Assembly: GCF_022846255.1 (NCBI RefSeq) | Contig: NZ_AP025682.1 | Length of the DNA stretch: 64,000 nucleotides | DNA from: Escherichia coli | GTDB lineage: Bacteria > Pseudomonadota > Gammaproteobacteria > Enterobacterales > Enterobacteriaceae | Strand: one strand, 5' to 3' | Shown: positions 2,017 through 24,475 of the stretch, piece by piece | Layout: each line of letters opens with the position of its first letter | Position numbering within the stretch: the first letter of the stretch is position 1 | The notes under the pieces: model-generated | Seen by the model: only the letters and a program-made list of their open reading frames with translations | Told to the model about the DNA's origin: nothing | The model's database searches: none | Position numbers and translations under genes: made by a program

Positions 2017-2084
2017 AACGCCTCCGGATTGACTCTGGCTTAAAGCGTAGTCAGTGGAGGAGATAACAAATTCATTTTTACAAA

Positions 2085-2122
2085 AACTTAAACATGAAGG
2101 GGGAGACGCTTTCTCCCCCTTA
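2085..2122 (-). terminator. hairpin plus T-rich tract downstream of bssR
   Basis: inverted repeat aagggggaga/tctccccctt immediately 3' of the bssR stop, followed on the minus strand by a T-rich run. Confidence 0.6.
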
Positions 2123-2126
2123 GTTT

Positions 2127-2510: not shown

Positions 2511-2722
2511 ACTTCGATCCTCCTCTTTCCAGCCTTGTTGCAACTAAATAGTATGGCTGTTTTTTGAGCAAAATGCTGTCCAGGATCAATTCTTCACGCC
2601 GAATTAACAAAATTTACATTTCCTTCAACTCCGCCAGCGAATGAGATTGCGATACAAATTTTATCCAGAACTCTGTAGAATCCCTGCCCTGACCTTTCCT
2701 GTAACTGAATATTTTTTAAGCT

Positions 2723-4048: not shown

Positions 4049-4054
4049 TTAATT

Positions 4055-4084
4055 CAGGCCGGGCAAAATCATTTGTCCGGCCTG
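4055..4084. terminator. hairpin between convergent rimO and dgcI
   Basis: inverted repeat caggccgggc ... gtccggcctg in the 46-nt gap between convergent stops; no strong T-run. Confidence 0.4.
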
Positions 4085-4094
4085 CGAATAATGA

Positions 4095-5423: not shown

Positions 5424-5430
5424 ACGTAAA

Positions 5431-7779
5431 CTACTCTTTTACTAATTTTCCACTTTTATCCCAGGCGGAGAATGGCATGGGTTTCTGGTACAGATACCCC
5501 TGAGCCTGAACACATCCTAATTTGATTAATTCACGCGCAACGTCTTCGCTCTCTACGCCTTCCGCAATCACCGGGATCCGGTTATAGCGTGCCAGATCGA
5601 AAATAATGCGCACAATTTTTCCCGCAGTACCGAAAATATCGCCGGTAAATTGCGAATCCACCTTTATACTGTCTGGATTAATTTCATAAAAACGTTTCAG
5701 GTTTGACAAACCGGTGCCAAAGTCATCAATCGATACCCGTACCCCTTGTTTACGCAGTTGTTCAATATTGAGATAGAAATGTTCATTAATTCGCTCGATC
5801 ACGGTTTCGGTGATCTCAACACAAAGGCTGTTCGCCTTCAGGCCATTTTCTTTCATGATGGTAGTAAAACGCTCATGAAAGTGTGGTTCGTTTAACTGCC
5901 AGGGCGAAACATTAATATGCAGTAAGAAATCATCCTTCAGCGACGCACGCTGACTAAAATGTCTGAATTCACCCATCGCGGTTTTAATAATTTGATAGCC
6001 CAGCTCATTGATAAACCCGATATCTTCAGCAATGGTAATGAACTTCAGCGGTGAAATAATCCCCCGCTCCGCAGACACCCAACGGCACAACGCCTCCGCG
6101 CCCAAAATGGTGCGGGTGTTAATATCAACAATCGGTTGATAGACCAGGAATAGTTCGCCAATTTCCATTGCATGGCGAATATTACGCGCAATCCAGATAT
6201 TCTCTTCTATTTCGTTGAGTTTCGCATCATCACAGAAAATAAACTCTGAGAACATATGGTTGCGGATACTGGAAATCGCCAGTTTCAGCTTTTCTGCGTA
6301 ACTCCAGGCGTTTTCCCCCTGCAAAGGTTCACAAATAGCAGACTTATGGATGCGCAGATTGCGGTAGCCAAAACTGCTGTCAAAATCGTTTACCGTCGCT
6401 ATCTTACGGGTAAACGTCTGTACATTTTCCCGGCACAGGAGTAAATAGAGATCGGCATTAAATGTCACGATATCGCAGCATTGCGCATATTTCTCGGCAA
6501 TTCGCTGACACAATTTCCTGACGATTTTATTGCGTTCATCAACACCAAACACCGCTTCCACAGCTTCCAGACCACACAGTTTGATGATCCCCACAGCCAG
6601 ATACTGATTATTGTTGGACTCAATAATCGCCATATTTTTAATAAAACCGCTTTCCTGATCGTAAGAGATCAGCGAGAGCAATTTATTTGCCCGTTCAATT
6701 TCAGCATCTTTCATTTCCGCGATCGAATTTTTGATGCTGATAATCTCTTTCGCATCGCCTTCACGAATCTTCAGGGCCTCGATTTGATCCGTAGAGTCAG
6801 GCAAAAACGCCAGCGTATTGACCAAATCTGTCATTTCAGAAAATTGCCGACGGAACACTCGAGTGGTCATTAAATAAACCACCAGCAATACGATAATAAT
6901 GAAAGCAAACGGCAGATAAAAAAGTTTATCTGATGCGTTCAATAAATTACCACCAGGATAATAAAAATAGATTTCGAATAATGCGTTGTTTGGCACCGCT
7001 GATGTTTTTTCAATATATTCCGTATCGACAGAATCAATAATATTATAATTACCTTCGCTATTATAAATAATCAATTTTTCACGAGCGAGTTGATTCTTAG
7101 CAATGATCTCATGACCTTGCTTTAAAAATAGAACTTCATCATTAGCGCTGATGTGATCAAGATACTCGTTCAGATATCGCCAGTTTAAATCGACATGAAT
7201 TTTATCTACCGCTAACAAATCATGATCTTTGCCGTTGATGTGTAGCGTAAAAGAGATACATTTTTTACCCGGACGATCAAAGCAATTGTATGCCGGGTTC
7301 CAGCTGTTGTTAGAGTCATCTGAAGCCATCGACCACGGTCGTTTCGATGGGTTAAAATCGGCAAAAATAACCCGCCCTGACTCGTCGACAAGCGGTCCAT
7401 TTACTTGTTCCTGATGATAAACAACGATTTTATTATTCGCCCTCCGCGAAAAGAGATAATATTTATTATCATCAAGTACCAGTCCCACCGAGTCTAAAAA
7501 TGGCATCATTTCCATTTTCAGAATTACGGCGCGTTGAATCTCCTCTGTATTTTTTAATAAATACAGTGAGTCCTTTAATGTCAGGGCCGAACGTTCAATA
7601 TCTTTAAAGAAATAGCCAACGTTTTTCTGAATAAGTTCAAAGCGGCTATCGGCACGTTTTACCGCGCGTTCCGATACCAGTTGATAGTTAATGATGAAAA
7701 AAAGACCAATAAATGACAGTGCTGCCAATAAAAATAAAATTATCAGCCTTATCTTTATCTTTTCGTATAAACTCAGCAT
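5431..7779 (-). CDS. pdeI: c-di-GMP phosphodiesterase (EAL) PdeI/YliE with periplasmic sensor region (782 aa)
   Basis: ORF track; TM segments flanking a large N-terminal domain; C-terminal EAL domain; synteny with dgcI. Confidence 0.9.
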
Positions 7780-7955
7780 GTTAATACATTTAACAAAATA
7801 ACTGTCTGAACGCTGTGCCGCTGCAAAATAGTCCCTTGCTGCGGCTTTTTAACCAAATTACCCGATTCTACAAAATCAGCAGAAAGTTACAACACTTGCT
7901 TAGGGCAATAATTTCCTGTGAGGTGATTACCCTTTCAAGCAATATTCAAACGTAA

Positions 7956-8867
7956 CTATCCTTTAATTTTCGGATCCAGCGCATCGCGTAAACCATCGCC
8001 CAACAAATTGAACGCCAGTACGGTCAGAAAAATAGCCAGGGCCGGAAAAACAGCGACATGCGGCGCGATAACCATATCCGCTCGTGCCTCATTGAGCATT
8101 GCTCCCCACTCTGGTGTCGGCGGCTGCGCACCGAGGCCGAGAAATGACAGGCTGGCGGCAGAGATAATCGAGGTGCCAATGCGCATGGTGAAAAACACCA
8201 CGATAGAAGAGACGGTCCCAGGCAAGATATGACGCAACAAAATGGTCATATCGCTGGCACCAATACTGCGTGCTGACTCGATAAAGGTTTGCTGTTTCAA
8301 CACCAGCGTGTTGCCGCGCACCAGCCGGGCAAACGCGGGGATGGAAAAAATGGCGACTGCGATAATCACGTTAGCAATGCCGCTTCCCAACACCGCAACA
8401 ACAGCGATCGCCAGTAAAATACCCGGGAAGGCAAACAGCACATCGCAAATACGCATGATCAGCCGATCCCACCAGCCTTCATAATATCCAGCCAGCAAGC
8501 CCAGCAACGTCCCGATCGCCGCACCGATAAATACGGCAAACACGCCCGCCGCCAGCGAGATTTGCGCACCAACCAGGACACGGCTGAAAATGTCGCGCCC
8601 CAGTGAATCGACACCAAACCAGTGCTGCAAAGAAGGTCCGTTATTCAGATTGTCATAATCAAAATAATTTTCGGCGTCATAGGGAGCGATCCAGCGTGCA
8701 AAAATGGCCACCACAATCAATAAAATAACGAACAATGCGGCGGTCATCGCCATATGCTGACGGCGAAATCGTCGCCAGAATTCATGCCACGGTGTACGTA
8801 CCTGGTCAGGTTTGACCAGTGGCATGGCGTTTAACACCGCCTGACGTCGCCAGTTAAATAGTCGCAT
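7956..8867 (-). CDS. gsiD: glutathione ABC transporter permease GsiD (303 aa)
   Basis: ORF track; Dpp/Opp-type permease; synteny. Confidence 0.92.
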
Positions 8868-8869
8868 CC

Positions 8870-9790
8870 TTACTTGTACCTGATAGCCGGGTTAATGGCG
8901 GCGTAAAGCACATCCACCACTAAGTTGATAAGAATAAATTCCAGCGAGAAAAGCAGAATTTCCGCCTGAATCACCGGGTAATCGCGCATTTCAACGGAGT
9001 CAACGAGTAAGCGTCCAAGTCCGGGCCAGTTGAAAACTTTCTCCACCACGATGGAACCACCGAGTAAAAATCCAAACTGTAAGCCCATCATGGTCACTAC
9101 CGGGATCATCGCGTTGCGTAGCCCGTGTTTGAGGACAACCCAGGTTTCGCTCACCCCTTTCGCCCTCGCGGTACGCATATAATCTTCGCTTAAAACGTCG
9201 ACAAACGACGCGCGGGTAAAGCGCGCCATCACGGCGGCCACTGCCGCGCCGAGCGTCAGGGAGGGTAAAATGTAGTGCTGCCAACTGTCTGCTCCCACGG
9301 TAGGCAGCCAGCCCAGTTCAACGGAGAATACCTGAATTAAAAGCATCCCCAGAGCAAATGCCGGAAACGAGATCCCCGACACCGCAATGGTCATACTCAA
9401 TCGATCCGGCCAACGGTTACGCCAGACGGCGGCGATAATTCCCGCCGCCATACCAAATATCACCGCCCAGACCATACTGGTTATGGTCAGCCACAGCGTT
9501 GGCATAAAGCGGCTGGCAATCTCATCGGCAACCGGACGACGCGACACCATCGACAGGCCAAAATCCCCCTGCACAGCATTGCTGATATAGTGCCAGAACT
9601 GGTGATACAGCGGCTGATCCAACCCCAGCTGCTGACGCACCAGTTCTATAACCTGCGCATCAGCTTCGGGCCCGGCAATCAATCGCGCCGGATCGCCGGG
9701 CAGCATATGGACAAATAAAAACACCAGCACCGAGACGATAAACAGCGTCGGAATCAACCCCAGTAAGCGTTTGATAACGTAATTAAGCAT
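8870..9790 (-). CDS. gsiC: glutathione ABC transporter permease GsiC (306 aa)
   Basis: ORF track; permease; synteny. Confidence 0.92.
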
Positions 9791-9807
9791 TCCACTCCCT
9801 GCGTTGC

Positions 9808-11346
9808 TTATTGCAAATCCGCATCTTCAAAGCTGAAGCCGGTGTCTGGCATGATCCAAAAACCGGTCAGGTTTTTACTGTGTGCCGACACCAGTTTTTC
9901 TACCACCAGCGGGATCCACGGCGACTCTTGCCAGATGATATCCTGCGCCGCCTTATACAAGCGGGTCTTTTCCGCCGGATCATTAGTTTTCAGTGCCTGA
10001 GCCAGGAAGTCATCCACCTGTTTATTGCTGTAAAACGCGGTATTAAACAGCGTTGGTGGCCAGTTCTGCGAGGCAAACAGCGGCGATAGAGCCCAGTCGG
10101 CTTCGCCGGTTGAAGCCGACCAGCCAGTGTAGAACATCCGCACGCCGCTCTCTTTTTGCCCTTTACCTTCAACTTCTGCCGCCCGCTGTCCGGCATCCAT
10201 CGCAGTCACCTGGGCTTTAATCCCAACCTGCGCTAACTGCTGCTGGGTAAATTGCAGCACTTTCTGCGCGGTGCTGTGGTTATGTGACGACCACAGCGTG
10301 GTACTGAAACCGTTGGGATATCCCGCCTCTTTCAGTAATTCGCGCGCTTTCACTGGATCGTAAGGCCACGGTTTATAACTTTGCGCGTAGGCGATACTCG
10401 GCGGTACCACACCAGTAGCTGGCGTTGCATAGCCCGCGAAGGCCACTTTCACCAGCGCCGGGCGGTTAATGGCGTAATTCAGCGCCTCACGGACCTTCGG
10501 GTTATCGAACGGCTTTTGCGTCACGTTCATACTGATATAACGCTGCATAATTGACGGACTGGCCATCAACTCGATATTTTTGTTTTTCTCCAGCAGTGCG
10601 GCCTGCTCGTAGGGAATGGGGAAAGCAAACTGCGCTTCACCGGTTTGCAGCATTGCCGCGCGGGTGTTGTTATCCGCCACCGGACGCCAGGTTATGCTGT
10701 CCAGTTTGGGCAATCCTGGCTGCCAGTAACCCGCGAATTTTTTCACCTTCACAAAATCGGTCTGATTCCAGGTATCCAGTTCATACGGCCCGGTTCCCAC
10801 CGGATGAAAACCAATCTCCTTGCCATATTTTTCCAGCGCTGCCGGTGAAATCATCGCGGTCGCCGGATGGGCAAGAATATTAATAAACGCTGAGAATGGC
10901 TGTTTGAGGGTAATCTTTACCGTTGTCGGATCGATCGCTTCCGTTTTGGCAATATTCTTATACAGGTTATAGCGTTTAAGATGATTCGCCGGATCGCTGG
11001 CCCGGTCCAGATTCGCTTTCACCGCCGCTGCGTTGAAATCGGTGCCATCCTGGAATTTAATGCCTTCCCGCAATTTCACGGTGTAAGTAAGGCCGTCATC
11101 GGAAACGGTGTAACTCTCCGCCAGCACGTTTTTCAGTTTCATCTCTTTATCCAGACCGAACAGCCCCTGGTAAAACGATTTCGCTACGGCCTGAGATAAC
11201 GTGTCATTTGCGTCATACGGATCGAGCGTGGTGAAGTTCGAGCCCACCGCCACCACCACATTTTTGGCAGCGAATGCACAAGATGCCATCAACGCTGTCG
11301 CAATGCCCAGCGCCACTAACCCACTACGGTGTACAGCTCTTGCCAT
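9808..11346 (-). CDS. gsiB: glutathione-binding periplasmic protein GsiB (512 aa)
   Basis: ORF track 9808..11613 trimmed to the Met starting [26 protein letters not shown] (signal peptide); the 601-aa extension overlaps gsiA and is rejected. Confidence 0.9.
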
Positions 11347-11365
11347 TTTATTCTCCGCCTGAATG

Positions 11366-13237
11366 TTATCTACGCATGAATGCGTATTCTGATTGTGGTT
11401 GTGCGACGTAATGCCCCGGCCCGACGCATTGCAACGAGACGACTGCAACTTCTTCGCCACGCAGATGAATATTGCTGGGAAGATCGTCCGACAGCAGTAC
11501 ACGCTGCGGTCGTTGTCGGGACGGTTCAGCGACCGGAACTGCCGCCAGTAATTTACGCGTATAAGGATGCTGCGGATTTTCAAAGACCGCGCGCCGTGGA
11601 CCAATTTCAACAACTTGCCCGAGATACATCACCGCCACACGATGACTAATCCGCTCAACCACGGCCATATCGTGGGAGATAAACAGATACGCAATGCCGA
11701 AATCACGCTGGAGATCGAGCAACAAGTTGATAATCTGCCCGCGAATAGAAACATCCAGCGCCGAGACGGCTTCGTCGGCAATGATCACTTTTGGATTCAA
11801 TGCCAACGCGCGAGCAATGCAGATGCGCTGGCGCTGACCGCCGGAAAACTCATGAGGGTAACGCCAGGCATGTTCCGGTAACAGACCCACGCGCTCCAGC
11901 AACCACGCAACGCGTGCAGCCGCTTCTTTACCTGGCAATAAACCGTGTACGCGCAGCGGTTCGAGAATCGAATCACCGATGGTCTGACGTGGGTCCAGCG
12001 AAGCGTAAGGGTCCTGAAAAATAAACTGAATATCGCGGCGCAATGCCTGAAGTTTACCGGGTGACAAGGTATCGATTCGCTGACCGTTAAAGATAATTTC
12101 GCCGCCTTGCGATTCGACCAGGCGCAGCAACGCCCGCCCGGTGGTGGATTTACCGCTGCCAGACTCGCCCACCAGCGATAGCGTTTCACCAGGCCAGAGA
12201 TCAAAACTGACTTTCTCAACGGCATGCACTTCCCGCGTTACGCGATTCAACAAACCGCTGCGCAAAGGGAAACGGGTGACCAGATTACGCACCCGTAAAA
12301 CAGGTTCGCCATCCACCACCGTTTTCTGCTCGATGGGTGGCTCCTGTTTCGCTGGATGTTCAAGCGATATCAATGGGAAACGTCGGGGATAATCTAACCC
12401 TTTCATCGCACCAAGTTGCGGAACAGCAGCTAACAGCGCACGGGTATAAGGATGTTGCGGTGCATGAAAAATCTGTTCGACGCTACCCGTTTCCACCGCC
12501 TCGCCCTGATACATCACCAGTACCCGATCGGCAATCTCTGCCACCACACCCATATCGTGAGTGATAAAGATAACGCCCATCGACATCTCTTTTTGCAATA
12601 CTTTGATTAATTGCAGGATCTGCGCCTGAATAGTGACATCCAGCGCGGTGGTTGGCTCATCGGCAATCAGCACCGCCGGGCGGCATGACAGCGCCATCGC
12701 AATCATCACTCGCTGGCGCATCCCGCCAGAGAGTTGATGCGGATAACGTGAAAGAATGGTTTGTGCCTCCGGAATGCGTACCTGATCCAGCATCCGCTTC
12801 GCCTCGACCATCGCTTCTTCACGACTGGCGTTCTGATGCAGACGAATAGATTCGGCAATCTGTTCACCCACAGCAAATACCGGGTTCAGCGATGTCATCG
12901 GCTCCTGAAATATCATCGCCATATCCGCCCCGCGCACATGGCGCATTTGTGCAGCACTCTGCTCGCTAAGTTCAATTACTTCGCGACTGCGCCGCTGCAA
13001 CAGCATTTTATCGCACTGCACTAAACCGCCCGCCTGTTCCAACAGGCGCATCAATGCCAGCGCAGTCACTGACTTACCGGAGCCGGATTCGCCAACAATT
13101 GCCAGCGTCTCACCACGTTGCAGGCTAAAAGAGAGATTGCGGACCGCAGCTATTTTCTGCTGCTCCTGCATAAAGGCAATATTCAGATTTTCAACCGCCA
13201 GCACATCACCGGCATCAAGTTCATCACTGTGTGGCAA
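11366..13237 (-). CDS. gsiA: glutathione ABC transporter ATPase GsiA, two nucleotide-binding domains (623 aa), TTG start
   Basis: two Walker A motifs ([18 protein letters not shown]); start placed at the TTG encoding L of ..[10 protein letters not shown] to match the 623-aa length; overlaps the iaaA 3' end by 14 nt. Confidence 0.85.
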
Positions 13238-14189
13238 CGGTGTCCCCTCTTTCACGGTAGATACCGGTGGTTGGCGTATCGCCTGCGTAGCCCCAGGCGC
13301 GATACATTCCTTCGGTGTTAAACGGTAGCGCGACATTCCCTTCATGGTCGATAGCGATTAAGCCACCGCTACCGCCAAGCGCAGGGAGTTTTTCCATTAC
13401 TACCCGCTCGCAGGCTTCCGCGAGACTTAATCCGCCGTAATCCATTAACGCGGCGATATCATATGCCGCCAACGCGCGGATGAAGACTTCGCCCGTGCCG
13501 GTACAGGAAACCGCCACACTGGCGTTATTGGCATAGCATCCGGCCCCCACTAAGGGACTATCGCCAACTCGTCCGGGTAATTTATTGGTCATTCCGCCCG
13601 TGGACGTGGCTGCCGCCAGATTGCCGTCTAAATCCAACGCCACGGCCCCCACGGTGCCCATTTTCTGTTTTTCATCCAGTGGCGCACCGCTATGGTCGAG
13701 AACCATTGCCCCTTCCTCGCGCGCTGCCAGTAGTTGTTCATAACGCAAAGGCGTGGAGAAAATCTCCGGCGAGACGCGCTCCATGCCATGAGCAAACGCA
13801 AAATTTTCTGCCCCTTCGCCAATCATCATCACATGCGGGCTTTGCTCCATCACCAGCCGGGCGGCAAGAACCGGATTACGCAGATGACTAACGCCTGCCA
13901 CCGCACCGGCTTTCAGGGTGTTACCATCCATCACACAGGCGTCCAGTTCATGGGTTTCATCACGCGTAAAGACAGCGCCAATTCCGGCGTTAAACAGTGG
14001 ACACTCTTCCAGCAGACGCACCGCTTCCGTCACCACATCCAGCGCACTTTCGCCCGCTTCCAGCATTTTCTGCCCGGTTTCAACAATGGCAGACAGCGCC
14101 TCGATGTAGCGTAATTCCTGTTGCAGACTCATCTGCGCGCGGCTAATTGCACCTGCGCCGCCATGAATTGCAATGACTGCTTTGCCCAT
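13224..14189 (-). CDS. iaaA: isoaspartyl dipeptidase / asparaginase-like Ntn hydrolase IaaA (321 aa)
   Basis: ORF track; [16 protein letters not shown]-terminus; GTVGAVALD autoprocessing region. Confidence 0.92.
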
Positions 14190-14392
14190 AGTATTCGTCC
14201 ATTAAGGGTGGCTCGCCACTTTTGCTATAAATATCAGAATTTTTATGAATGACTCATTCAATTTTTGAATATAGAAAGATGGATATGGCATGTAAAGGCA
14301 GGAGCCAACGCTACGCCCGAGGTGGCATACAGTCTGTGGCGTTTTTCTGACATAATAGGCAAATTCGATTTTGCCTCCGCAGGAGTGTTTTC

Positions 14393-15628
14393 ATGGAATT
14401 TACCACCGGATTGATGTCGCTCGACACCGCGCTTAATGAGATGCTTTCTCGCGTTACCCCACTGACCGCCCAGGAAACGCTGCCACTGGTTCAGTGTTTT
14501 GGTCGTATTCTGGCGAGCGATGTCGTTTCGCCACTGGATGTCCCGGGGTTTGATAACTCCGCTATGGACGGCTACGCGGTGCGTTTAGCCGATATTGCCT
14601 CCGGGCAACCGCTGCCCGTTGCCGGTAAATCCTTTGCCGGTCAGCCGTACCATGGTGAATGGCCTGCGGGTACCTGCATTCGTATTATGACCGGTGCGCC
14701 GGTGCCAGAAGGCTGCGAAGCGGTGGTGATGCAGGAGCAGACTGAACAAACGGACAATGGCGTGCGTTTTACTGCTGAAGTGCGTAGCGGGCAAAATATT
14801 CGCCGTCGCGGTGAAGATATCTCTGCAGGTGCGGTTGTTTTCCCGGCGGGAACTCGCCTGACTACCGCGGAACTGCCAGTGATTGCTTCACTGGGGATTG
14901 CCGAAGTTCCGGTGATTCGTAAAGTGCGTGTAGCGCTGTTTTCTACCGGTGATGAACTCCAGTTGCCTGGTCAGCCACTGGGCGATGGCCAAATCTACGA
15001 TACCAACCGTCTCGCCGTACACCTGATGTTAGAACAGCTGGGTTGCGAGGTAATCAACTTAGGGATTATCCGCGACGATCCCCATGCCCTGCGCGCCGCA
15101 TTTATTGAAGCCGACAGCCAGGCGGATGTAGTGATCAGTTCCGGCGGTGTTTCAGTGGGTGAAGCGGATTACACCAAAACCATTCTCGAAGAGCTGGGTG
15201 AAATCGCCTTCTGGAAGCTGGCGATTAAACCGGGTAAACCGTTCGCGTTCGGTAAACTCAGCAATAGCTGGTTCTGCGGCCTGCCGGGTAATCCGGTTTC
15301 AGCAACGCTGACCTTCTATCAACTGGTACAGCCGTTACTGGCAAAATTGAGCGGCAACACCGCCAGCGGCCTGCCCGCGCGTCAGCGCGTACGCACGACA
15401 TCGCCTCTGAAGAAATCGCCAGGACGCCTTGATTTCCAGCGCGGCGTGCTGCAACGTAATGCTGACGGTGAACTGGAAGTCACCACCACCGGGCATCAGG
15501 GCTCACATATATTTAGCTCTTTTAGCCTCGGCAACTGCTTTATCGTACTGGAACGCGAGCGCGGCAATGTAGAAGCGGGCGAATGGGTGGAAGTAGAACC
15601 ATTTAACGCGTTGTTCGGAGGCCTGTAA
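14393..15628 (+). CDS. moeA: molybdopterin molybdenumtransferase MoeA (411 aa)
   Basis: ORF track; MoeA family; synteny with moeB. Confidence 0.95.
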
Positions 15629-16377
15629 TGGCAGAACTCAGCGATCAGGAGATGCTGCGCTACAACCGGCAAATCATTCTGCGCGGTTTTGATTTTGACG
15701 GTCAGGAAGCATTGAAAGATTCCCGCGTGCTGGTCGTCGGCCTTGGTGGACTCGGCTGCGCAGCTTCGCAGTATCTGGCAAGCGCCGGTGTCGGCAACCT
15801 GACGCTGCTCGACTTCGACACGGTTTCGCTCTCCAATCTGCAACGCCAGACGCTGCACAGTGATGCCACGGTCGGGCAACCAAAGGTGGAATCCGCCCGT
15901 GACGCCCTGACGCGGATCAACCCACATATCGCGATTACGCCAGTCAATGCGCTGCTTGATGACGCTGAACTTGCTGCGATGATTGCAAAACACGATCTGG
16001 TGCTCGACTGTACGGATAACGTTGCAGTACGTAATCAACTGAACGCAGGCTGTTTTGCCGCGAAGGTGCCGCTGGTTTCCGGCGCGGCAATTCGTATGGA
16101 AGGGCAAATCACGGTCTTCACTTATCAGGACGGCGAACCGTGCTATCGCTGCCTTAGCCGTTTGTTTGGCGAGAACGCGTTAACCTGCGTAGAAGCAGGC
16201 GTGATGGCACCGTTGATCGGCGTAATTGGTTCGTTGCAGGCAATGGAAGCGATCAAACTGCTGGCAGGTTATGGCAAACCAGCCAGCGGGAAAATCGTGA
16301 TGTACGATGCGATGACCTGTCAGTTTCGCGAAATGAAACTGATGCGTAATCCGGGGTGTGAGGTGTGCGGGCAGTAA
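15628..16377 (+). CDS. moeB: molybdopterin-synthase adenylyltransferase MoeB (249 aa)
   Basis: ORF track; ThiF/MoeB fold GLGGLGC, C-terminal CxxC pairs; start overlaps the moeA stop (TAATG). Confidence 0.95.
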   Translation: MAELSDQEMLRYNRQIILRGFDFDGQEALKDSRVLVVGLGGLGCAASQYLASAGVGNLTLLDFDTVSLSNLQRQTLHSDATVGQPKVESARDALTRINPHIAITPVNALLDDAELAAMIAKHDLVLDCTDNVAVRNQLNAGCFAAKVPLVSGAAIRMEGQITVFTYQDGEPCYRCLSRLFGENALTCVEAGVMAPLIGVIGSLQAMEAIKLLAGYGKPASGKIVMYDAMTCQFREMKLMRNPGCEVCGQ

Positions 16378-16439
16378 CTGCCACCTCCAGGCCAGATAAG
16401 ACGCGGCACTCCGCCACGTCATCAGCAATTTATGAGGAT

Positions 16440-16469
16440 GCAGAACGTCCGGTTAAATCGACGTTCTGC
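16440..16469. terminator. hairpin spanning the fsaA stop between convergent moeB and fsaA
   Basis: 10-bp inverted repeat gcagaacgtc ... gacgttctgc. Confidence 0.35.
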
Positions 16470-17115
16470 CAAACGCTCCCAGCCAGTCCTGTTCAAACTT
16501 CGCCACAGCGGCATCAACTGCCGGATAGCTAATCATCTGTTGTGCCACATCCAGTGGCAGAGTAATTGATTCACACCCTGCCAGTAAGCAGTCCAGCGCC
16601 TGACGCGGGGTTTTGAAACTCGCGGCTAACACTTTCGCCTGCGGCGCATGCATTTTCAATAACTGGTGTAAGTCGGTCACAGTCTGAATACCGCTACCGC
16701 CCTGAGCATCAATACGATTAACGTAAGGCGCAACATATTCCGCACCTGCCAGCGCCGACAGTAGCCCTTGTGCTGCGCCATATACCGCGGTTCCCAGCGT
16801 CGGAATCCCTTCCGCTTTTAACATCTTAATAGCTGCCAGCCCCTCAGCGGTCACCGGAACTTTCACCACGATATCCGCAATAATAGAACGCAATTTACGT
16901 GCGTCATTCACCATCCCTTCAGCAGTGGTAGCCATTACCTGGGCAAATAGACGCCCCTGACCGCCCATCGCCTCGTGAAGTTGCGGAAGCACAACCTCCA
17001 GCGGTTTTTTACCCGCAGCGATAATGCTTGGGTTAGTGGTTACACCCGCCAGCGGAAAAATACGTGACAGCGCCTTCACCGCAACAACGTCTGAAGTATC
17101 CAGATACAGTTCCAT
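16453..17115 (-). CDS. fsaA: fructose-6-phosphate aldolase 1 (220 aa)
   Basis: ORF track trimmed to [10 protein letters not shown]; transaldolase-like TIM barrel. Confidence 0.92.
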
Positions 17116-17245
17116 AACCATCCTCAAAATGTACTTTTTGTCTGAATGTAGACTATCACGGGAAAACTCTCTGAACAGTTGACGTACATCAATCTAACTT
17201 TCATTCGAAAGTATTTTAATGTTTGAACGAAACAGAGAGGCAACT

Positions 17246-18145
17246 ATGATTTTCAATATTCAACGCTACTCGACCCATGATGGCCCCGGTATCCGCACGG
17301 TCGTATTTCTTAAAGGCTGTTCGCTGGGCTGCCGCTGGTGTCAGAACCCGGAAAGCCGCGCCCGCACGCAGGATCTGCTGTATGACCCACGACTCTGTCT
17401 GGAAGGCTGTGAACTGTGCGCTAAGACCGCACCGGAAGTGATTGAGCGCGCGTTGAATGGTTTGCTTATTCATCGGGAAAAGTTAACCCCGGAGCATTTT
17501 ACGGCGCTAACCGACTGCTGCCCGACACAGGCGTTAACCGTGTGTGGTGAAGTGAAAAGCGTTGAGGAGATCATGGCAACCGTTTTGCGCGATAAACCGT
17601 TTTACGAGCGCAGCGGCGGCGGCTTAACGCTTTCTGGCGGTGAACCGTTTATGCAGCCGGAAATGGCGACGGCGCTGCTGCAAGCCAGCCACGAGGCCGG
17701 CATTCATACTGCGGTAGAAACCTGTCTGCATGTGCCGTGGAAATATATCGCCCCTTCTCTGCCCTATATCGATCTGTTTCTTGCCGATTTAAAACACGTT
17801 GCCGACGCGCCGTTTAAACAGTGGACCGACGGTAACGCCGCCAGGGTGCTGGATAACCTGAAAAAACTCGCCGCAGCCGGCAAAAAAATCATTATCCGCG
17901 TGCCACTGATTCAAGGCTTTAATGCCGACGAAACTTCTGTGAAAGCCATTACCGATTTTGCCGCCGACGAGCTGCACGTTAGCGAAATTCATTTTCTGCC
18001 CTACCACACACTGGGCATCAACAAATATCACTTACTTAATCTGCCCTATGACGCCCCGGAAAAACCGCTTGATGCGCCAGAACTGCTCGACTTTGCCCAG
18101 CAGTATGCCTGCCAGAAAGGGTTAACCGCGACCTTACGAGGATAA
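17246..18145 (+). CDS. ybiY: glycyl-radical enzyme activating protein YbiY (radical SAM, 299 aa)
   Basis: ORF track trimmed to ATG preceded by GAGAGG RBS; CxxxCxxC motif (CSLGCRWC) plus extra ferredoxin-like Cys clusters. Confidence 0.88.
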
Positions 18146-18150
18146 CAATC

Positions 18151-20583
18151 ATGACAACACTAAAACTGGATACGCTCAGCGACCGCATTAAAGCGCACAA
18201 AAATGCGCTGGTGCATATTGTGAAACCGCCGGTCTGTACCGAACGAGCACAACACTATACCGAGATGTATCAACAACATCTCGATAAGCCAATCCCGGTA
18301 CGTCGCGCGCTGGCACTGGCGCATCACCTGGCGAATCGCACCATCTGGATCAAACATGATGAATTGATCATTGGCAACCAGGCAAGCGAAGTTCGCGCCG
18401 CGCCGATCTTCCCGGAATATACTGTCTCATGGATCGAAAAAGAGATTGATGATCTGGCAGATCGTCCCGGTGCTGGCTTTGCGGTGAGCGAAGAGAACAA
18501 ACGCGTTCTGCATGAAGTGTGCCCGTGGTGGCGCGGTCAGACCGTACAGGATCGCTGCTACGGCATGTTTACCGATGAGCAAAAAGGTCTGCTGGCGACC
18601 GGCATCATTAAAGCGGAAGGCAATATGACCTCCGGCGATGCGCACCTGGCGGTCAATTTCCCGCTGCTGCTGGAAAAAGGGCTTGATGGTCTGCGCGAGA
18701 AAGTAGCGGAACGTCGCTCGCGCATCAACCTGACGGTGCTGGAAGATTTACACGGTGAGCAATTCCTGAAAGCGATTGATATCGTGCTGGTGGCAGTCAG
18801 TGAACACATTGAACGTTTCGCTGCCCTGGCGCGTGAAATGGCCGCGACCGAAACCCGCGAAAGCCGTCGCGATGAACTGCTGACGATAGCAGAAAACTGC
18901 GATCTTATCGCCCACCAGCCGCCGCAGACTTTCTGGCAGGCGCTGCAACTATGTTACTTCATCCAGTTGATTTTGCAGATCGAATCTAACGGTCACTCGG
19001 TATCGTTTGGTCGTATGGACCAGTATCTCTACCCATACTATCGCCGCGACGTTGAACTGAACCAGACACTGGATCGCGAACACGCCATCGAGATGCTGCA
19101 TAGCTGCTGGTTGAAATTGCTGGAAGTGAACAAAATCCGCTCCGGCTCACACTCAAAAGCCTCTGCGGGAAGTCCGCTATATCAGAACGTCACCATTGGC
19201 GGGCAAAATCTGGTTGATGGTCAACCGATGGACGCGGTAAATCCACTCTCTTATGCGATCCTCGAATCTTGCGGTCGCCTGCGTTCGACTCAGCCTAACC
19301 TCAGCGTGCGTTACCATGCGGGTATGAGTAACGATTTCCTCGACGCCTGTGTGCAGGTGATCCGCTGCGGCTTCGGGATGCCGGCGTTCAACAACGATGA
19401 AATCGTCATCCCGGAATTTATTAAACTCGGTATTGAACCGCAGGACGCTTACGACTACGCAGCAATTGGTTGTATCGAAACCGCCGTCGGTGGCAAATGG
19501 GGCTATCGCTGTACCGGCATGAGCTTTATCAACTTCGCCCGCGTGATGCTGGCGGCGCTGGAAGGTGGTCGTGATGCCACCAGCGGCAAAGTGTTCCTGC
19601 CACAAGCAAAAGCGTTGTCAGCGGGTAACTTCAACAACTTCGATGAAGTAATGGACGCATGGGATACGCAAATCCGTTACTACACGCGTAAATCAATCGA
19701 AATCGAATATGTCGTCGACACCATGCTGGAAGAGAACGTACACGATATTCTCTGCTCGGCGCTGGTCGATGACTGTATTGAGCGAGCGAAAAGTATCAAG
19801 CAAGGCGGCGCGAAATATGACTGGGTTTCTGGCCTGCAGGTCGGCATTGCTAACCTCGGCAACAGCCTGGCGGCAGTGAAGAAACTGGTATTTGAACAGG
19901 GAGCGATTGGTCAGCAACAGCTGGCTGCCGCACTGGCGGATGACTTCGACGGCCTGACTCACGAGCAGCTGCGTCAGCGGCTGATTAACGGTGCGCCGAA
20001 GTACGGCAACGACGATGATACTGTCGATACGCTGCTGGCTCGCGCTTATCAGACCTATATCGACGAACTAAAACAGTACCATAACCCGCGCTATGGTCGT
20101 GGTCCGGTTGGCGGCAATTATTACGCGGGTACGTCATCTATCTCCGCTAACGTACCCTTTGGCGCGCAGACGATGGCAACGCCGGACGGACGTAAAGCGC
20201 ATACCCCGCTGGCAGAAGGCGCTAGTCCGGCCTCCGGTACTGATCATCTTGGCCCTACTGCGGTCATTGGCTCAGTGGGTAAACTGCCTACGGCCGCGAT
20301 TCTCGGCGGCGTGCTGCTCAACCAGAAACTGAATCCAGCAACGCTGGAGAACGAATCTGACAAGCAGAAACTGATGATCCTGCTGCGTACCTTCTTTGAA
20401 GTGCATAAAGGCTGGCATATTCAGTACAACATCGTTTCCCGCGAAACGCTGCTGGAAGCGAAAAAACATCCGGATCAGTACCGCGATCTGGTAGTGCGCG
20501 TCGCGGGCTATTCCGCCTTCTTCACCGCGCTCTCTCCAGACGCTCAAGACGATATCATCGCCCGTACTGAACATATGCTGTAA
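18151..20583 (+). CDS. ybiW: pyruvate formate-lyase-like glycyl radical enzyme YbiW (810 aa)
   Basis: ORF track; C-terminal glycyl radical motif RVAGYSAFF; immediately downstream of its activase. Confidence 0.92.
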   Translation: MTTLKLDTLSDRIKAHKNALVHIVKPPVCTERAQHYTEMYQQHLDKPIPVRRALALAHHLANRTIWIKHDELIIGNQASEVRAAPIFPEYTVSWIEKEIDDLADRPGAGFAVSEENKRVLHEVCPWWRGQTVQDRCYGMFTDEQKGLLATGIIKAEGNMTSGDAHLAVNFPLLLEKGLDGLREKVAERRSRINLTVLEDLHGEQFLKAIDIVLVAVSEHIERFAALAREMAATETRESRRDELLTIAENCDLIAHQPPQTFWQALQLCYFIQLILQIESNGHSVSFGRMDQYLYPYYRRDVELNQTLDREHAIEMLHSCWLKLLEVNKIRSGSHSKASAGSPLYQNVTIGGQNLVDGQPMDAVNPLSYAILESCGRLRSTQPNLSVRYHAGMSNDFLDACVQVIRCGFGMPAFNNDEIVIPEFIKLGIEPQDAYDYAAIGCIETAVGGKWGYRCTGMSFINFARVMLAALEGGRDATSGKVFLPQAKALSAGNFNNFDEVMDAWDTQIRYYTRKSIEIEYVVDTMLEENVHDILCSALVDDCIERAKSIKQGGAKYDWVSGLQVGIANLGNSLAAVKKLVFEQGAIGQQQLAAALADDFDGLTHEQLRQRLINGAPKYGNDDDTVDTLLARAYQTYIDELKQYHNPRYGRGPVGGNYYAGTSSISANVPFGAQTMATPDGRKAHTPLAEGASPASGTDHLGPTAVIGSVGKLPTAAILGGVLLNQKLNPATLENESDKQKLMILLRTFFEVHKGWHIQYNIVSRETLLEAKKHPDQYRDLVVRVAGYSAFFTALSPDAQDDIIARTEHML

Positions 20584-20728
20584 TCTTCTCAGCCCGGCGG
20601 CGGCGTCGCCGGGCTAAATCATTCACATCATCAATTTCAGCCTCGCTTTCATTCGAAATATAATTTGTGCTCTGCGTCACATTGTTATTACACTGTTACG
20701 GTTTCATTTTCGAGCCAGGAGCACACCT

Positions 20729-21544
20729 ATGAGCGTAAAAGTTATCGTCACAGACATGGACGGTACTTTTCTTAACGACGCCAAAACGTACAACCAACCA
20801 CGTTTTATGGCGCAATATCAGGAACTGAAAAAGCGCGGCATTGAGTTCGTTGTCGCCAGCGGTAATCAGTATTACCAGCTTATTTCGTTCTTTCCTGAGC
20901 TAAAGGATGAGATCTCTTTTGTCGCGGAAAACGGCGCACTGGTTTACGAACATGGCAAGCAGTTGTTCCACGGCGAACTGACCCGACATGAATCGCGGAT
21001 TGTTATTGGCGAGTTGCTAAAAGATAAGCAACTCAATTTTGTCGCCTGCGGTCTGCAAAGTGCATATGTCAGCGAAAATGCCCCCGAAGCATTCGTCGCA
21101 CTGATGGCAAAACACTACCATCGCCTGAAACCTGTAAAAGATTATCAGGAGATTGACGACGTACTGTTCAAGTTTTCGCTCAACCTGCCGGATGAACAAA
21201 TCCCGTTAGTGATCGACAAACTGCACATAGCGCTGGATGGCATTATGAAACCCGTCACCAGTGGTTTTGGCTTTATCGACTTGATTATTCCCGGTCTACA
21301 TAAAGCAAACGGTATTTCGCGGTTACTGAAACGCTGGGATCTGTCACCGCAAAATGTGGTAGCGATTGGCGACAGCGGTAACGATGCGGAGATGCTGAAA
21401 ATGGCCCGTTATTCCTTTGCGATGAGCAATGCTGCGGAAAACATTAAACAAATCGCCCGTTACGCTACCGATGATAATAATCATGAAGGCGCGCTGAATG
21501 TGATTCAGGCGGTGCTGGAAAATAAACCGCCGTTTAATCTTTGA
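20729..21544 (+). CDS. ybiV: HAD-family (Cof-type) sugar phosphatase YbiV (271 aa)
   Basis: ORF track; DMDGT HAD motif I at N-terminus, GDSGND motif near C-terminus. Confidence 0.9.
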
Positions 21545-21582
21545 TTATCGCCAATTCAGTTTATTGAGAAAGTGCATGTCAT

Positions 21583-21683
21583 TATGCCGGATACGGCGTA
21601 ACCGCCTTATTTGGCATACAAAATCATGAAAATTCAATATATTGCGATACACTGCCAGGCCTGATAAGCGTAGCGCACCAGGC
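21583..21683. repeat. BIME-1/RIP-like element: degenerate REP, IHF-like linker, REP
   Basis: gccggatacggcgtaaccgccttatttggc, then linker with tcaatatattg (IHF-like WATCAAnnnnTTR), then gcctgataagcgtagcgcaccaggc; followed by hairpin cagtagccctga...tcagggctactg at about 21709..21737. Confidence 0.75.
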
Positions 21684-21743
21684 AATCTTGCGTTTGTCAT
21701 CAGTTTCAGTAGCCCTGACCACATCAGGGCTACTGATAATAAC

Positions 21744-23336
21744 TTACTCGATCCCTTTACTACGCAGGTAATCTTCGTAATTACCGCTAAAGTCGATCAC
21801 GCGTTCCGGGGTGATTTCCAGAATACGGGTCGCCAGGGAGCTTACGAACTCACGGTCGTGTGAAACAAAGATCAGCGTGCCCTGATACAGTTCCAGCGCC
21901 ATGTTCAGCGACTCAATAGATTCCATATCCAGGTGGTTGGTCGGTTCGTCCATGATCAGAATGTTCGGCTTCTGCATCATTAACTTACCAAACAGCATCC
22001 GCCCTTTCTCCCCACCGGAAAGCACTTTCGCTGGCTTTTTGATGTCGTCCTGGCTGAACAGCAAACGACCGAGAATGCTGCGTACCGCCTGCTCGTCATC
22101 GCCTTCCTGCTTCCACTGGCTCATCCATTCGAACACGGTCAGATCATTTTCAAACTCATATTCGTGGTCCTGAGCGTAGTAACCAATGCGCGCGTTTTCA
22201 GACCATTTTACGGTGCCGCTGTCCGGTTGCAGATCGCCCACCAGCGTTTTCAGCAGCGTTGATTTACCGACGCCGTTGGTACCCAGTACCGCCAGTTTTT
22301 CACCCACTTCCAGCAGCAGGTTGAGATTTTTAAACAGTGGACCGTTATCAAACCCTTTAGTCAGACCTTCCACTTCCAGCGCGTTACGGAACAGTTTCTT
22401 ATCCTGCTCAAAACGGATGAACGGGTTCTGACGGCTGGAGGCTTTCACCTCTTCCAGTTTGATTTTATCAATCTGGCGCGCACGCGAAGTTGCCTGGCGA
22501 GATTTCGAGGCGTTGGCGCTAAAGCGGCTAACGAAAGATTGCAACTCAGCAATCTGCGCTTTCTTCTTGGCGTTATCAGCCAGCAGACGTTCACGCGCCT
22601 GAGTCGCCGCCGTCATGTACTCATCGTAGTTGCCCGGATAAACGCGCAGCTCGCCGTAATCCAGATCCGCCATGTGGGTACAAACCATGTTAAGGAAGTG
22701 ACGGTCGTGCGAGATGATGATCATGGTGCTGTCACGCTCGTTCAGCACCTGTTCCAGCCAGCGAATGGTGTCGATGTCGAGGTTGTTGGTCGGTTCGTCG
22801 AGCAGGAGAATGTCCGGATCAGCAAACAGCGCCTGAGCCAGCAGCACACGCAGCTTCCAGCCAGGAGCAACTTCACTCATCGGGCCGTAGTGCTGTTCCA
22901 CTGGAATTCCCACGCCAAGCAACAGTTCACCAGCGCGAGCTTCCGCAGAGTAACCGTCCATTTCGCCGTATTTCACTTCCAGATCGGCCACTTTATAGCC
23001 GTCTTCTTCACTCATTTCCGGCAAAGCATAGATGCGGTCACGCTCCTGCTTCACTTCCCACAACTCTTTATGCCCCATGATCACCGTATCCAGCACAGTG
23101 AACTCTTCAAAGGCAAACTGATCCTGACGCAGCTTACCAATGCGCTCGTTGGGATCGAGGGAAACGTTACCCAACGTCGGCTCTAAGTCGCCGCCGAGGA
23201 TCTTCATAAAGGTGGATTTACCACTACCGTTCGCGCCAATCAGGCCGTAACGGTTGCCGCCGCCGAATTTGACGGAAATGTTTTCAAACAACGGCTTACT
23301 GCCGAACTGCATGGTGACGTTACTGGAAACTAACAC
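21744..23336 (-). CDS. ybiT: ABC-F family ATPase YbiT, tandem ABC domains (530 aa)
   Basis: ORF track; two Walker A motifs ([18 protein letters not shown]); no TM domain. Confidence 0.92.
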
Positions 23337-23554
23337 AGGCGTATCCTGAAAAGAGATATGACAAACCGCGCATTATGCCATAAGTCTGAAAGAAGATCCT
23401 GCTCCTCGCTTAAGGTCTACACTCAAGCCAAAGGCAAAAAATGTGATTTCGTACACATCTGATTTCACTGTGAGCTGGAATGAACTTATAATGCACTTCC
23501 AATACTCTAATATTCTCAACCCAATGGCCTGCCAGGCACAAAATCTCGCTTAAC

Positions 23555-24475
23555 ATGAATATGAAATTGAAAACATTATTCGCAGCGGCCTTCGCTGTTG
23601 TCGGCTTTTGCAGTACCGCCTCTGCGGTAACTTATCCTCTGCCAACCGACGGGAGTCGCCTGGTTGGTCAGAATCAGGTGATCACCATTCCTGAAGGTAA
23701 CACTCAGCCGCTGGAGTATTTTGCCGCCGAGTACCAGATGGGACTTTCCAATATGATGGAAGCGAACCCGGGTGTGGATACCTTCCTGCCGAAAGGCGGT
23801 ACTGTACTGAACATTCCGCAGCAGCTGATCCTGCCGGATACCGTTCATGAAGGCATCGTCATTAACAGTGCAGAGATGCGTCTGTATTACTATCCGAAAG
23901 GGACCAACACCGTTATCGTGCTACCGATCGGCATTGGTCAGTTAGGCAAAGACACGCCTATCAACTGGACCACCAAAGTTGAGCGTAAAAAAGCAGGCCC
24001 GACCTGGACGCCGACCGCTAAAATGCACGCAGAGTACCGCGCTGCGGGCGAACCGCTTCCGGCGGTCGTTCCGGCTGGTCCGGATAACCCGATGGGGCTG
24101 TATGCACTCTACATCGGTCGCCTGTACGCTATCCATGGCACCAACGCCAACTTCGGTATCGGCCTGCGTGTAAGTCATGGTTGTGTGCGTCTGCGTAACG
24201 AAGACATCAAATTCCTGTTCGAGAAAGTACCGGTCGGTACCCGCGTACAGTTTATTGATGAGCCGGTAAAAGCGACCACCGAGCCAGACGGCAGCCGTTA
24301 TATTGAAGTCCATAACCCGCTGTCTACCACTGAAGCCCAGTTTGAAGGTCAGGAAATTGTGCCAATTACCCTGACGAAGAGCGTGCAGACAGTGACCGGT
24401 CAGCCAGATGTTGACCAGGTTGTTCTGGATGAAGCGATCAAAAATCGTTCCGGGATGCCGGTTCGTCTGAATTAA
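23555..24475 (+). CDS. ldtB: L,D-transpeptidase LdtB/YbiS (306 aa)
   Basis: ORF track; signal peptide; YkuD domain with SHGCVRL catalytic motif. Confidence 0.92.

What the first reader, a model, noticed from the sequence alone, without database searches (positions are those of the whole stretch)
21545..21743. ybiU is absent: only a 200-bp repeat-filled spacer separates ybiV and ybiT
The ybiV stop (21544) and the ybiT stop (21744) are separated by 199 nt containing a RIP/BIME-like element and a hairpin, with no room for a coding gene. In the K-12 order as I remember it (ybiT-ybiU-ybiV-ybiW-ybiY), a roughly 1.3-kb gene, ybiU (DUF1479, oxygenase-like), sits here. Either this genome has lost it, perhaps by repeat-mediated deletion, or it never acquired it.
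Basis: partly seen in the sequence, partly recalled or inferred. Interest (0 to 1): 0.45.

Follow-up and report, generated by a model that had tools for sequence, protein, structure and literature searches.

The report
Old ybiU-less ybiV–ybiT junction
The gene ybiU really is missing between ybiV and ybiT, but this is an old, common gene-loss variant found in about a fifth of E. coli genomes and in the sister species E. albertii, so it is ordinary strain-to-strain variation.

Summary
ybiV ends at 21544 and ybiT at 21744. The 199-nt spacer between them holds a BIME-1/RIP repeat (two inverted REPs around an IHF-site linker) and a perfect 13-bp hairpin, with no room for a gene. K-12 has ybiU here.

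The same junction is present, in single copy, in 1053 of 5426 complete E. coli genomes (19.4%). About 4090 of the others carry K-12-type ybiU.

ybiU next to ybiV is the ancestral enterobacterial state: 36 of 38 non-Escherichia enterobacterial loci have it. K-12 ybiU differs from Citrobacter ybiU about as much as the flanking genes do. So the absence is a loss, not a failure to acquire.

The loss is old. E. albertii has the same junction at 89% identity. Within the roughly 230-nt block the window is closer to E. albertii than to K-12, and in the flanking genes the reverse holds.

A simple repeat-to-repeat deletion is not supported. The right breakpoint abuts a REP. The left one lies inside the last 9 codons of ybiV, which are replaced by a very divergent tail, and there is no repeat there in K-12.

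The interval has at least six alternative contents across Escherichia. Verdict: real, explained and ordinary.

The parts
20729..21544 (+). ybiV (sugar phosphatase, 271 aa), intact. The body 20729-21512 is 98.7% identical to K-12.
21518..21544 (+). Divergent 3' tail of ybiV, ENKPPFNL*, against K-12 DNTSPFNS*. Only 17 of 27 nt match K-12. The tail is shared with E. albertii and with the other haplotypes that lack ybiU. This is the left edge of the haplotype block.
21545..21583 (.). 39-nt linker specific to this haplotype. Together with 21538-21544 it forms the 46 nt that replace 1504 bp of K-12, including ybiU. It is single-copy and found only at this junction in E. coli genomes.
21584..21618 (+). 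First REP of the BIME-1/RIP element. It is partly decayed in this lineage (TTTGG where relatives have CCGG). The K-12 alignment resumes exactly at its outer edge.
   Evidence: (I3); weak REP-derived naRNA4 match
21619..21656 (.). Long (L) linker of the BIME-1 element with the conserved IHF-site motif (core 21630-21647).
   Evidence: definition in PMC3333891
21657..21700 (-). Second REP, in inverse orientation, plus the conserved element end (TTGCGTTTGTCAT).
21706..21736 (-). Perfect 13-bp stem and 5-nt loop immediately 3' of the ybiT stop. Its position is conserved, and the stem shows compensatory changes between haplotypes. No U-run follows it.
   Evidence: (I4)
21744..23336 (-). ybiT (ABC-F ATPase, 530 aa), intact, 98.3% identical to K-12.

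Best explanation
The window carries one allele of a multi-allelic ybiV-ybiT junction. I call this allele haplotype B. The allele is a block of about 230 nt (21513-21743) made of four pieces:
- a divergent ybiV tail;
- a 39-nt linker;
- a BIME-1/RIP element;
- the ybiT 3' hairpin.

In it, the ancestral gene ybiU, its upstream region and the original ybiV terminator are gone.

Shown:
- ybiU is ancestral at this position.
- The junction is identical by descent in about 19% of E. coli genomes and in E. albertii.
- Its divergence between the two species equals that of the flanking genes, so the loss happened once, around or before the species split.
- The neighbouring genes ybiY, ybiW, ybiV and ybiT are intact.

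Inferred:
- The allele reached this strain by descent within its lineage. I take that lineage to be phylogroup B2, from the names of the best-matching strains.
- Recombination has homogenised the flanks within E. coli.
- The block arose by allelic replacement or illegitimate recombination, with one end inside the ybiV tail and the other at a REP edge. It did not arise by crossover between two repeats.
- The REPs and the hairpin now serve as the 3'-end structures for the two convergent transcription units.
For: Coordinates and annotation.

Breakpoints: window 21538-21583 (46 nt) stands against 1504 bp in K-12.

Frequency:
- 1052 genomes hold the 401-nt junction.
- 1053 of 5426 hold the junction-specific 78 nt, always once and always at ybiV.
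- 4249 genomes have a ybiU match, about 4090 of them at 80% identity or more. There are only 4271 places in all, so extra copies are rare.

ybiU is ancestral:
- 36 of 38 non-Escherichia enterobacterial loci have ybiV-ybiU, often followed by LacI-MFS-GH31.
- The DNA identity of K-12 ybiU to Citrobacter matches that of the flanking genes.
- The K-12 ybiV tail and its terminator hairpin match those of Citrobacter.
- E. coli strains that keep LacI-MFS-GH31 have a Citrobacter-like sequence after ybiT.

The loss is old and happened once:
- The E. albertii type strain and four further assemblies at E. albertii-level divergence have the same 199-nt spacer, 88.7-89.5% identical.
- Tail plus linker: window to E. 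albertii 91.5%.
- RIP: window to E. albertii 87.2%, window to K-12 82.4%.
- Hairpin: window to E. albertii 93.0%, window to K-12 65.1%.
- ybiV body and ybiT: window to K-12 98.7% and 98.3%, window to E. albertii 89.5% and 92.5% (all).

BIME-1 identity: with the definition.
Against: - The mechanism of the original event cannot be reconstructed. No donor with an ENKPPF-type ybiV tail was found among 46 species loci.
- The 39-nt linker matches nothing else.
- Ancestral polymorphism and old introgression between E. coli and E. albertii cannot be told apart with these data.
- Phylogroup membership of the 1053 carriers was not typed. It rests on strain names only (ATCC 11775, ATCC 25922, O25b:H4-ST131, M1/5).
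- The rest of the source genome is not available, so a ybiU copy elsewhere in it is not formally excluded.
- The role of the REPs and hairpin as 3'-end structures is inference. The consensus scan finds no canonical intrinsic terminator.
Confidence: 0.85

Rival explanations
1. Never acquired. The repeat-only junction is the original Escherichia state, and ybiU was inserted later in the K-12-like lineages.
For: - E. albertii, an early-branching Escherichia, lacks ybiU at this site.
- Several other Escherichia species carry something other than K-12-type ybiU here.
Against: - ybiV-ybiU adjacency holds in 36 of 38 non-Escherichia enterobacterial loci.
- K-12 ybiU is 80-86% identical in DNA to Citrobacter ybiU, like ybiW and ybiT, so there is no sign of recent import.
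- The K-12 ybiV tail and terminator are collinear with Citrobacter's, whereas the window's tail is the outlier.
- E. coli strains with ybiU-LacI-MFS-GH31 keep the Citrobacter-like right junction.
Confidence: 0.05
2. A recent deletion in this strain or clone, caused by recombination between two REP/BIME repeats flanking ybiU.
For: - The right breakpoint coincides exactly with the outer edge of a REP.
- REPs are known sites of recombination and IS insertion (PMC1525189).
- E. coli W has IS621 inserted in this same intergenic region.
Against: - In K-12 there is no REP or other repeat at the left breakpoint. What lies there is the ybiV tail and a terminator.
- The window has 46 nt of non-K-12 sequence plus a diverged tail in place of a clean junction.
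- The identical junction is in 1053 genomes and in E. albertii at about 89% identity, so it is not recent.
Confidence: 0.04
3. Interspecies introgression. The ybiU-less block arose in one species (E. albertii or a relative) and was later moved into the E. coli lineage of this window by homologous recombination, rather than persisting as an ancestral polymorphism.
For: - The block is short, about 230 nt, and sharply bounded by flanks that follow the species tree.
- The divergent ybiV tail suggests a foreign allele.
- Other alleles at this site (a divergent ybiU at 75-77% identity, and the DUF6960 cassette) are also shared between Escherichia species.
Against: Divergence of the block between the window and E. 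albertii (7-13%) is as large as that of the flanking genes (7.5-10.5%). Any transfer would therefore have to be about as old as the species split.
Confidence: 0.3
4. Assembly or reading artefact: ybiU collapsed out of the sequence.
For: None.
Against: 1053 independent complete genomes, among them the E. coli type strain and ATCC 25922, have the same junction.
Confidence: 0.01

Closest known systems
BIME-1 / RIP (RIB) elements of E. coli: two inverted REPs separated by the long L linker that carries an IHF site
   Same: The architecture matches: REP, a roughly 38-nt linker with the conserved AATTCAATATATTGC motif, then an inverted REP. It is a single unit, lies outside genes at the 3' ends of two convergent genes, and has another copy in the same window at 46636-46761. 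The definition is from PMC3333891.
   Different: The first REP is partly decayed in this lineage: GGATACGG and TTTGG where E. albertii and K-12 have GGATGCGG and CCGG. IHF binding was not tested.
K-12 MG1655 ybiT-ybiU-ybiV locus (b0820-b0822)
   Same: The flanking genes, their orientation, the BIME-1 element and a hairpin after ybiT are the same.
   Different: 1504 bp are absent from the window: the ybiV terminator, the ybiU upstream region, ybiU itself and 81 nt downstream of it. The ybiV tail and the stem sequence of the ybiT hairpin differ.
Accessory-gene presence/absence polymorphism at a conserved chromosomal 'hotspot' between core genes in E. coli
   Same: One interval between two core genes holds alternative contents in different strains:
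- nothing;
- ybiU;
- ybiU plus IS621;
- ybiU-LacI-MFS-GH31;
- a divergent ybiU;
- hyp93 plus DUF6960;
- DUF4261.

   Different: The cargo is small, from 0 to about 6.5 kb. No integrase, tRNA or phage genes are involved. The alleles are shared across species boundaries.

Membership tests
BIME-1 / RIP repeat element | Two REP palindromes in inverse orientation | tested here: met
   Palindrome at 21583-21618 (I3). The second REP, from 21657, aligns with the inverted REP of the copies in K-12, in E. albertii and at window 46.7 kb. Both fold as hairpins.
BIME-1 / RIP repeat element | Long, conserved L linker carrying the IHF-site motif | tested here: met
   The linker 21619-21656 has the motif AAATTCAATATATTGCGA. 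The motif is conserved in all four aligned copies. Definition.
BIME-1 / RIP repeat element | Dispersed multi-copy family in extragenic positions | tested here: met
   A second full copy lies at window 46636-46761. The motif search gave 3 matches against 0.21 expected. Genome-wide copy number could not be counted from a 64-kb window.
BIME-1 / RIP repeat element | Binding of IHF | not testable with these tools
   Needs a gel-shift or ChIP experiment.
ybiU (Gig2-like, formerly DUF1479; Pfam PF07350) gene present | An ORF with PF07350 homology between ybiV and ybiT or elsewhere in the window | tested here: not met
   K-12 YbiU matches PF07350 at E = 2.4e-154. tblastn of it against the window gives nothing better than E = 1.3. 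The spacer is 199 nt.
Intrinsic (Rho-independent) terminator | G+C-rich stem-loop followed by a U-run | tested here: not met
   The hairpin at 21706-21736 is strong, but the scan finds no terminator-like site on either strand. No T-run follows the stem.

The most novel reading that the evidence does not exclude
The ybiV-ybiT interval may be a long-lived, multi-allelic exchange site. At least three alleles are each shared between E. coli and other Escherichia species: the empty one, the DUF6960 cassette and a xenologous ybiU. This pattern could reflect balancing or niche-dependent selection on accessory partners of the YbiW/YbiY 1,5-anhydroglucitol-6-phosphate pathway, rather than neutral decay. 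On that reading, the ybiU-less allele would mark a real metabolic difference of B2 strains and E. albertii.
Probability: 0.15. Interest if true: 0.4.

Novelty: already known. Interest (0 to 1): 0.15.

Why it matters
It matters little in itself. The finding is a correct call of a strain-specific gene absence that is already visible in more than a thousand annotated genomes.

It is useful as a marker: the junction-specific 78 nt is single-copy and diagnostic of one haplotype class.

It is also a small worked example of how a sugar-related cluster was eroded stepwise in Escherichia. The ancestral ybiY-ybiW-ybiV-ybiU-lacI-MFS-GH31 became ybiU only, and then nothing. Short haplotype blocks survived across a species boundary while recombination homogenised the flanks.

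YbiU has solved structures (2dbi, 2csg) but no assigned function in the papers found. Natural ybiU-less lineages with intact ybiYWV are ready-made material for asking what it does. YbiW has been assigned to anaerobic 1,5-anhydroglucitol-6-phosphate cleavage, according to PMC12441222.

Tried and rejected
- Rfam scan of 20500-23600 at a permissive threshold gave only a weak sub-threshold match to REP-derived naRNA4 (21.5 bits against a gathering score of 59.5). There is no RNA gene in the spacer.
- A strict 37-nt REP consensus with up to 3 mismatches found nothing in the window. The REPs here are too diverged for that pattern, so alignment to other copies was used instead.
- The promoter/terminator scan found nothing in 21300-21950.
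- A search for the origin of the 46-nt junction filler found no other copy in any of 5426 genomes or in 50 related loci. A 17-nt stretch (21553-21569) resembles the RIP linker motif at 14 of 17 positions (D1). That is too weak to claim a second decayed BIME.
- The alternative cargo proteins (DUF4261, DUF6960, the 93-aa ORF) and YbiU were scanned against the NCBIfam and PADLOC libraries, with no hits.
- The literature search turned up 13 papers that mention ybiU. None concerns its absence in particular lineages. The primary paper on YbiW function is not in the library.
- I first suspected that K-12 ybiU came from Citrobacter, because its protein is 91-96% identical to Citrobacter's but only 82-84% identical to that of other Escherichia species. 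DNA identities showed the opposite. K-12 ybiU is at normal vertical distance from Citrobacter, and the 75%-identity ybiU of the other Escherichia species is the xenologue.
- The E. coli genome search does not allow intersecting hit lists. So I could not test directly whether any ybiU-less genome has ybiU elsewhere. The counts (1053 + 4249 + 41 is no more than 5426) are compatible with no overlap but do not prove it.

Full report
**1. The observation**

The ORF list gives ybiV at 20729..21544 (+, 271 aa) and ybiT at 21744..23336 (-, 530 aa). The sequence between them, 21545-21743, is 199 nt. In K-12 MG1655 the order is ybiT, ybiU (1266 bp, DUF1479), ybiV, ybiW, ybiY. The window has ybiY, ybiW, ybiV and ybiT in the opposite orientation, without ybiU.

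RefSeq annotation of the closest complete genome, the E. coli type strain ATCC 11775, shows exactly the same arrangement. The match is 99.5% over ybiV-ybiT. K-12 YbiU belongs to Pfam PF07350 (Gig2-like, formerly DUF1479) and has solved structures. tblastn of it against the whole 64-kb window finds nothing (best E = 1.3).

**2. What the spacer is made of**

Going left to right:

- A 39-nt linker (21545-21583).
- A REP palindrome (about 21584-21618).
- A linker of about 38 nt containing AAATTCAATATATTGCGA.
- A second REP in inverse orientation (from 21657).
- A perfect 13-bp hairpin (21706-21736), 7 nt from the ybiT stop codon.

The REP-linker-REP unit aligns along its whole length with another copy in the same window (46636-46761). 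It also aligns with the copies at the same position in K-12 and E. albertii. The linker motif occurs 3 times in the window against 0.21 expected. This is the architecture of BIME-1, also called RIP or RIB, as defined in PMC3333891.

The spacer is much more structured than shuffled sequence, with z = -5.8 and -5.3 on the two strands. There is no canonical intrinsic terminator or promoter and no Rfam family above threshold.

**3. Breakpoints relative to K-12**

The alignment to K-12 runs up to window 21537 and resumes at 21584. Between these points 46 nt of the window stand in place of 1504 bp of K-12. That K-12 stretch holds the ybiV terminator hairpin, the ybiU upstream region, ybiU itself and 81 nt downstream of it.

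The right breakpoint is exactly the outer edge of the first REP. The left breakpoint is not clean. The last nine codons of ybiV, counting the stop, are homologous but very different. The window has ENKPPFNL* and K-12 has DNTSPFNS*, with 17 of 27 nt identical. The other 784 nt of ybiV are 98.7% identical.

K-12 has no repeat at the left breakpoint. The 46 nt match nothing else in 5426 genomes or in the related loci. A simple crossover between two repeats therefore does not explain the junction.

**4. Frequency in E. coli**

Counts among 5426 complete genomes:

| State of the ybiV-ybiT interval | Genomes |
|---|---|
| 401-nt junction of the window, in one piece | 1052 |
| Junction-specific 78 nt, once per genome and always at ybiV | 1053 (19.4%) |
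| Any ybiU match | 4249 |
| ybiU at 80% identity or more | about 4090 |
| Divergent ybiU at 60-80% identity, shown to be at the same locus in the one genome examined | 159 |
| ybiU followed by LacI-MFS-GH31 | 576-578 |
| 93-aa ORF plus a DUF6960 gene instead of ybiU | 36 |
| DUF4261 gene instead of ybiU | a few |
| IS621 in the REP region after ybiU | E. coli W |

ybiU has only 4271 places in 4249 genomes, so extra or relocated copies are rare.

Genomes with the empty junction have ybiV and ybiT alleles about 99.0-99.5% identical to the window. In the spread sample, ybiU carriers are at 97.3% or below. So the allele sits on one haplotype background.

The named carriers include ATCC 11775, ATCC 25922 and O25b:H4-ST131 strains. 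From my own knowledge these are phylogroup B2.

**5. Lost or never acquired?**

A scan of one genome per species found 46 loci with a YbiV relative. Of the 38 non-Escherichia enterobacterial loci, 36 have ybiU directly after ybiV. Most of them continue with LacI-MFS-GH31.

K-12 ybiU is 80-86% identical in DNA to Citrobacter ybiU. The same comparison gives 84-86% for ybiW and 86-88% for ybiT. The K-12 ybiV tail (DNTSPFN-) and the CCGGAGC...GCTCCGGTTTT hairpin after it are shared with Citrobacter.

E. coli strains that still have LacI-MFS-GH31 also have a Citrobacter-like sequence after the ybiT stop. All other Escherichia alleles except the DUF6960-cassette allele have the 'GTTATTATC + hairpin' type.

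So ybiU was inherited vertically, and the likely order is:

1. ybiU-LacI-MFS-GH31, the ancestral state.
2. ybiU alone, with a BIME-1 element and a new hairpin next to ybiT.
3. No ybiU.

The window's state is a loss.

**6. Age of the loss**

The E. albertii type strain has the same junction, with the same tail (ENKPPFTL), linker, BIME-1 element, hairpin and 199-nt spacer. Four more assemblies carry the identical E. albertii YbiV protein and have ybiW 92.8-93.2% identical to K-12. They have the same junction at 88.7-89.5% identity to the window. Four others with the same YbiV have the DUF6960 cassette instead.

Identities by segment:

| Segment | Window vs E. albertii | Window vs K-12 |
|---|---|---|
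| Tail plus linker | 91.5% | not alignable |
| BIME-1 | 87.2% | 82.4% |
| Hairpin | 93.0% | 65.1% |
| ybiV body | 89.5% | 98.7% |
| ybiT | 92.5% | 98.3% |

Inside the 230-nt block the window groups with E. albertii, at ordinary between-species distance. Outside the block it groups with K-12.

The deletion or replacement therefore happened once, around or before the split of the two species, or it was exchanged between them about that long ago. Recombination has since homogenised the flanks within E. coli. These data cannot separate ancestral polymorphism from old introgression.

**7. How it most likely arose and works**

The ENKPPF-type tail is further from K-12's tail (17/27) than K-12's is from Citrobacter's (23-25/27). 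No sampled species outside Escherichia has this tail. It is shared by all three alleles that lack ybiU: the empty one, DUF6960 and DUF4261.

The divergent-ybiU allele also changes at the ybiV tail. This suggests that alleles at this site are swapped by homologous recombination, with crossovers in the conserved body of ybiV and in or next to ybiT. On that view the ybiU-less allele began as an imported or illegitimately rearranged block. This step is inference, and the donor is unknown.

ybiYWV and ybiT are intact. YbiW is reported to be the glycyl-radical enzyme that cleaves 1,5-anhydroglucitol-6-phosphate (PMC12441222). ybiU has been grouped with ybiVWY and fsaA as an uncharacterised pathway (PMC8464067).

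The ancestral ybiV terminator is gone. The REPs and the hairpin are the only strong structures left between the convergent genes.

The hairpin keeps its position after ybiT in the empty, ybiU-only, divergent-ybiU and DUF4261 alleles, with compensatory stem changes:
- window: CAGTAGCCCTGA / TCAGGGCTACTG
- K-12: CCGTCACCCCGA / TCGGGGTGACGG
- strain HYM1: CTGTAACCCCGA / TCGGGGTTACAG

This argues that the hairpin is a functional 3' structure of ybiT.

**8. ybiU has been hit repeatedly**

- Escherichia sp. MOD1-EC7003 has an 836-bp internal deletion that removes the 5' part of ybiU.
- Strain HH97 has ybiU disrupted, with about 2.6 kb of unannotated sequence between ybiV and ybiT.
- Two other Escherichia species and 159 E. 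coli genomes carry a ybiU only 75-77% identical in DNA.

The gene seems dispensable in Escherichia. This fits an accessory role that was tied to partners already lost, but that link is speculative.

**9. Verdict**

Of the two alternatives offered, 'lost' is right. The loss is ancient and lineage-wide rather than strain-specific, and a simple repeat-mediated deletion is not supported.

This is ordinary accessory-gene variation plus a standard BIME-1 element, present in more than a thousand public annotated genomes. The only mildly notable points are that the allele crosses a species boundary and that the interval has many alternative states. Interest is low.

Noticed in passing
window 46636-46761: A second complete BIME-1/RIP element (REP, IHF-motif linker, inverted REP) very similar to the one at 21584-21700.
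   Followed up: partly
L051 2505-8993 (E. coli Ecol_316); L007, L023, L027 and many other species loci: The ancestral enterobacterial content of this interval is ybiU followed by a convergent, slightly overlapping LacI-family regulator, an MFS transporter and a GH31 glycosidase. About 577 of 5426 E. coli genomes still have it, with a Citrobacter-like sequence after ybiT. Its substrate, and any link to the YbiW 1,5-anhydroglucitol pathway, are unknown.
   Followed up: partly
L052 3965-5224 (E. coli 13P477T); L004 6969-8222; L006 6971-8224: A xenologous ybiU, only 75-77% identical in DNA to K-12 ybiU while the flanks are 93-99% identical, sits at the same locus in 159 E. coli genomes and in two other Escherichia species. 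It comes with its own variant ybiV tail (DNIAPFNC / DNLAPFNS).
   Followed up: partly
L003 2817-3848 (EcPF16), L037 (E. whittamii), L056/L057/L059/L060 (E. albertii-level assemblies); L054 7029-7772 (HYM1): Small cassettes of unknown function replace ybiU: a 93-aa ORF plus a DUF6960 protein, or a DUF4261 protein on the opposite strand. EcPF16 keeps a 126-nt remnant of the DUF4261 gene. The DUF6960 cassette is shared by E. coli, E. whittamii and E. albertii. There are no NCBIfam or PADLOC hits.
   Followed up: partly
window 21706-21736 and the equivalent positions in L001, L054, L004, L052: The hairpin just after the ybiT stop keeps its position but differs in stem sequence between haplotypes, with compensatory changes on both arms. 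This suggests a selected RNA or DNA structure, although no U-run follows it.
   Followed up: partly
L050 7829-8809 (E. coli W): IS621, an IS110-family element known to target REP sequences, is inserted between ybiU and ybiT, where the BIME-1 element lies.
   Followed up: no
L043 6955-7400 (Escherichia sp. MOD1-EC7003); L053 3850-6470 (E. coli HH97): Independent inactivations of ybiU: an 836-bp internal deletion of its 5' part in L043, and a disrupted gene with about 2.6 kb of unannotated sequence between ybiV and ybiT in HH97.
   Followed up: partly
window 1-20000: The best match to any of 5426 complete E. coli genomes is only 99.3% over 20 kb. The source strain is therefore not closely represented in that collection, although it clearly carries B2-type alleles here.
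   Followed up: no
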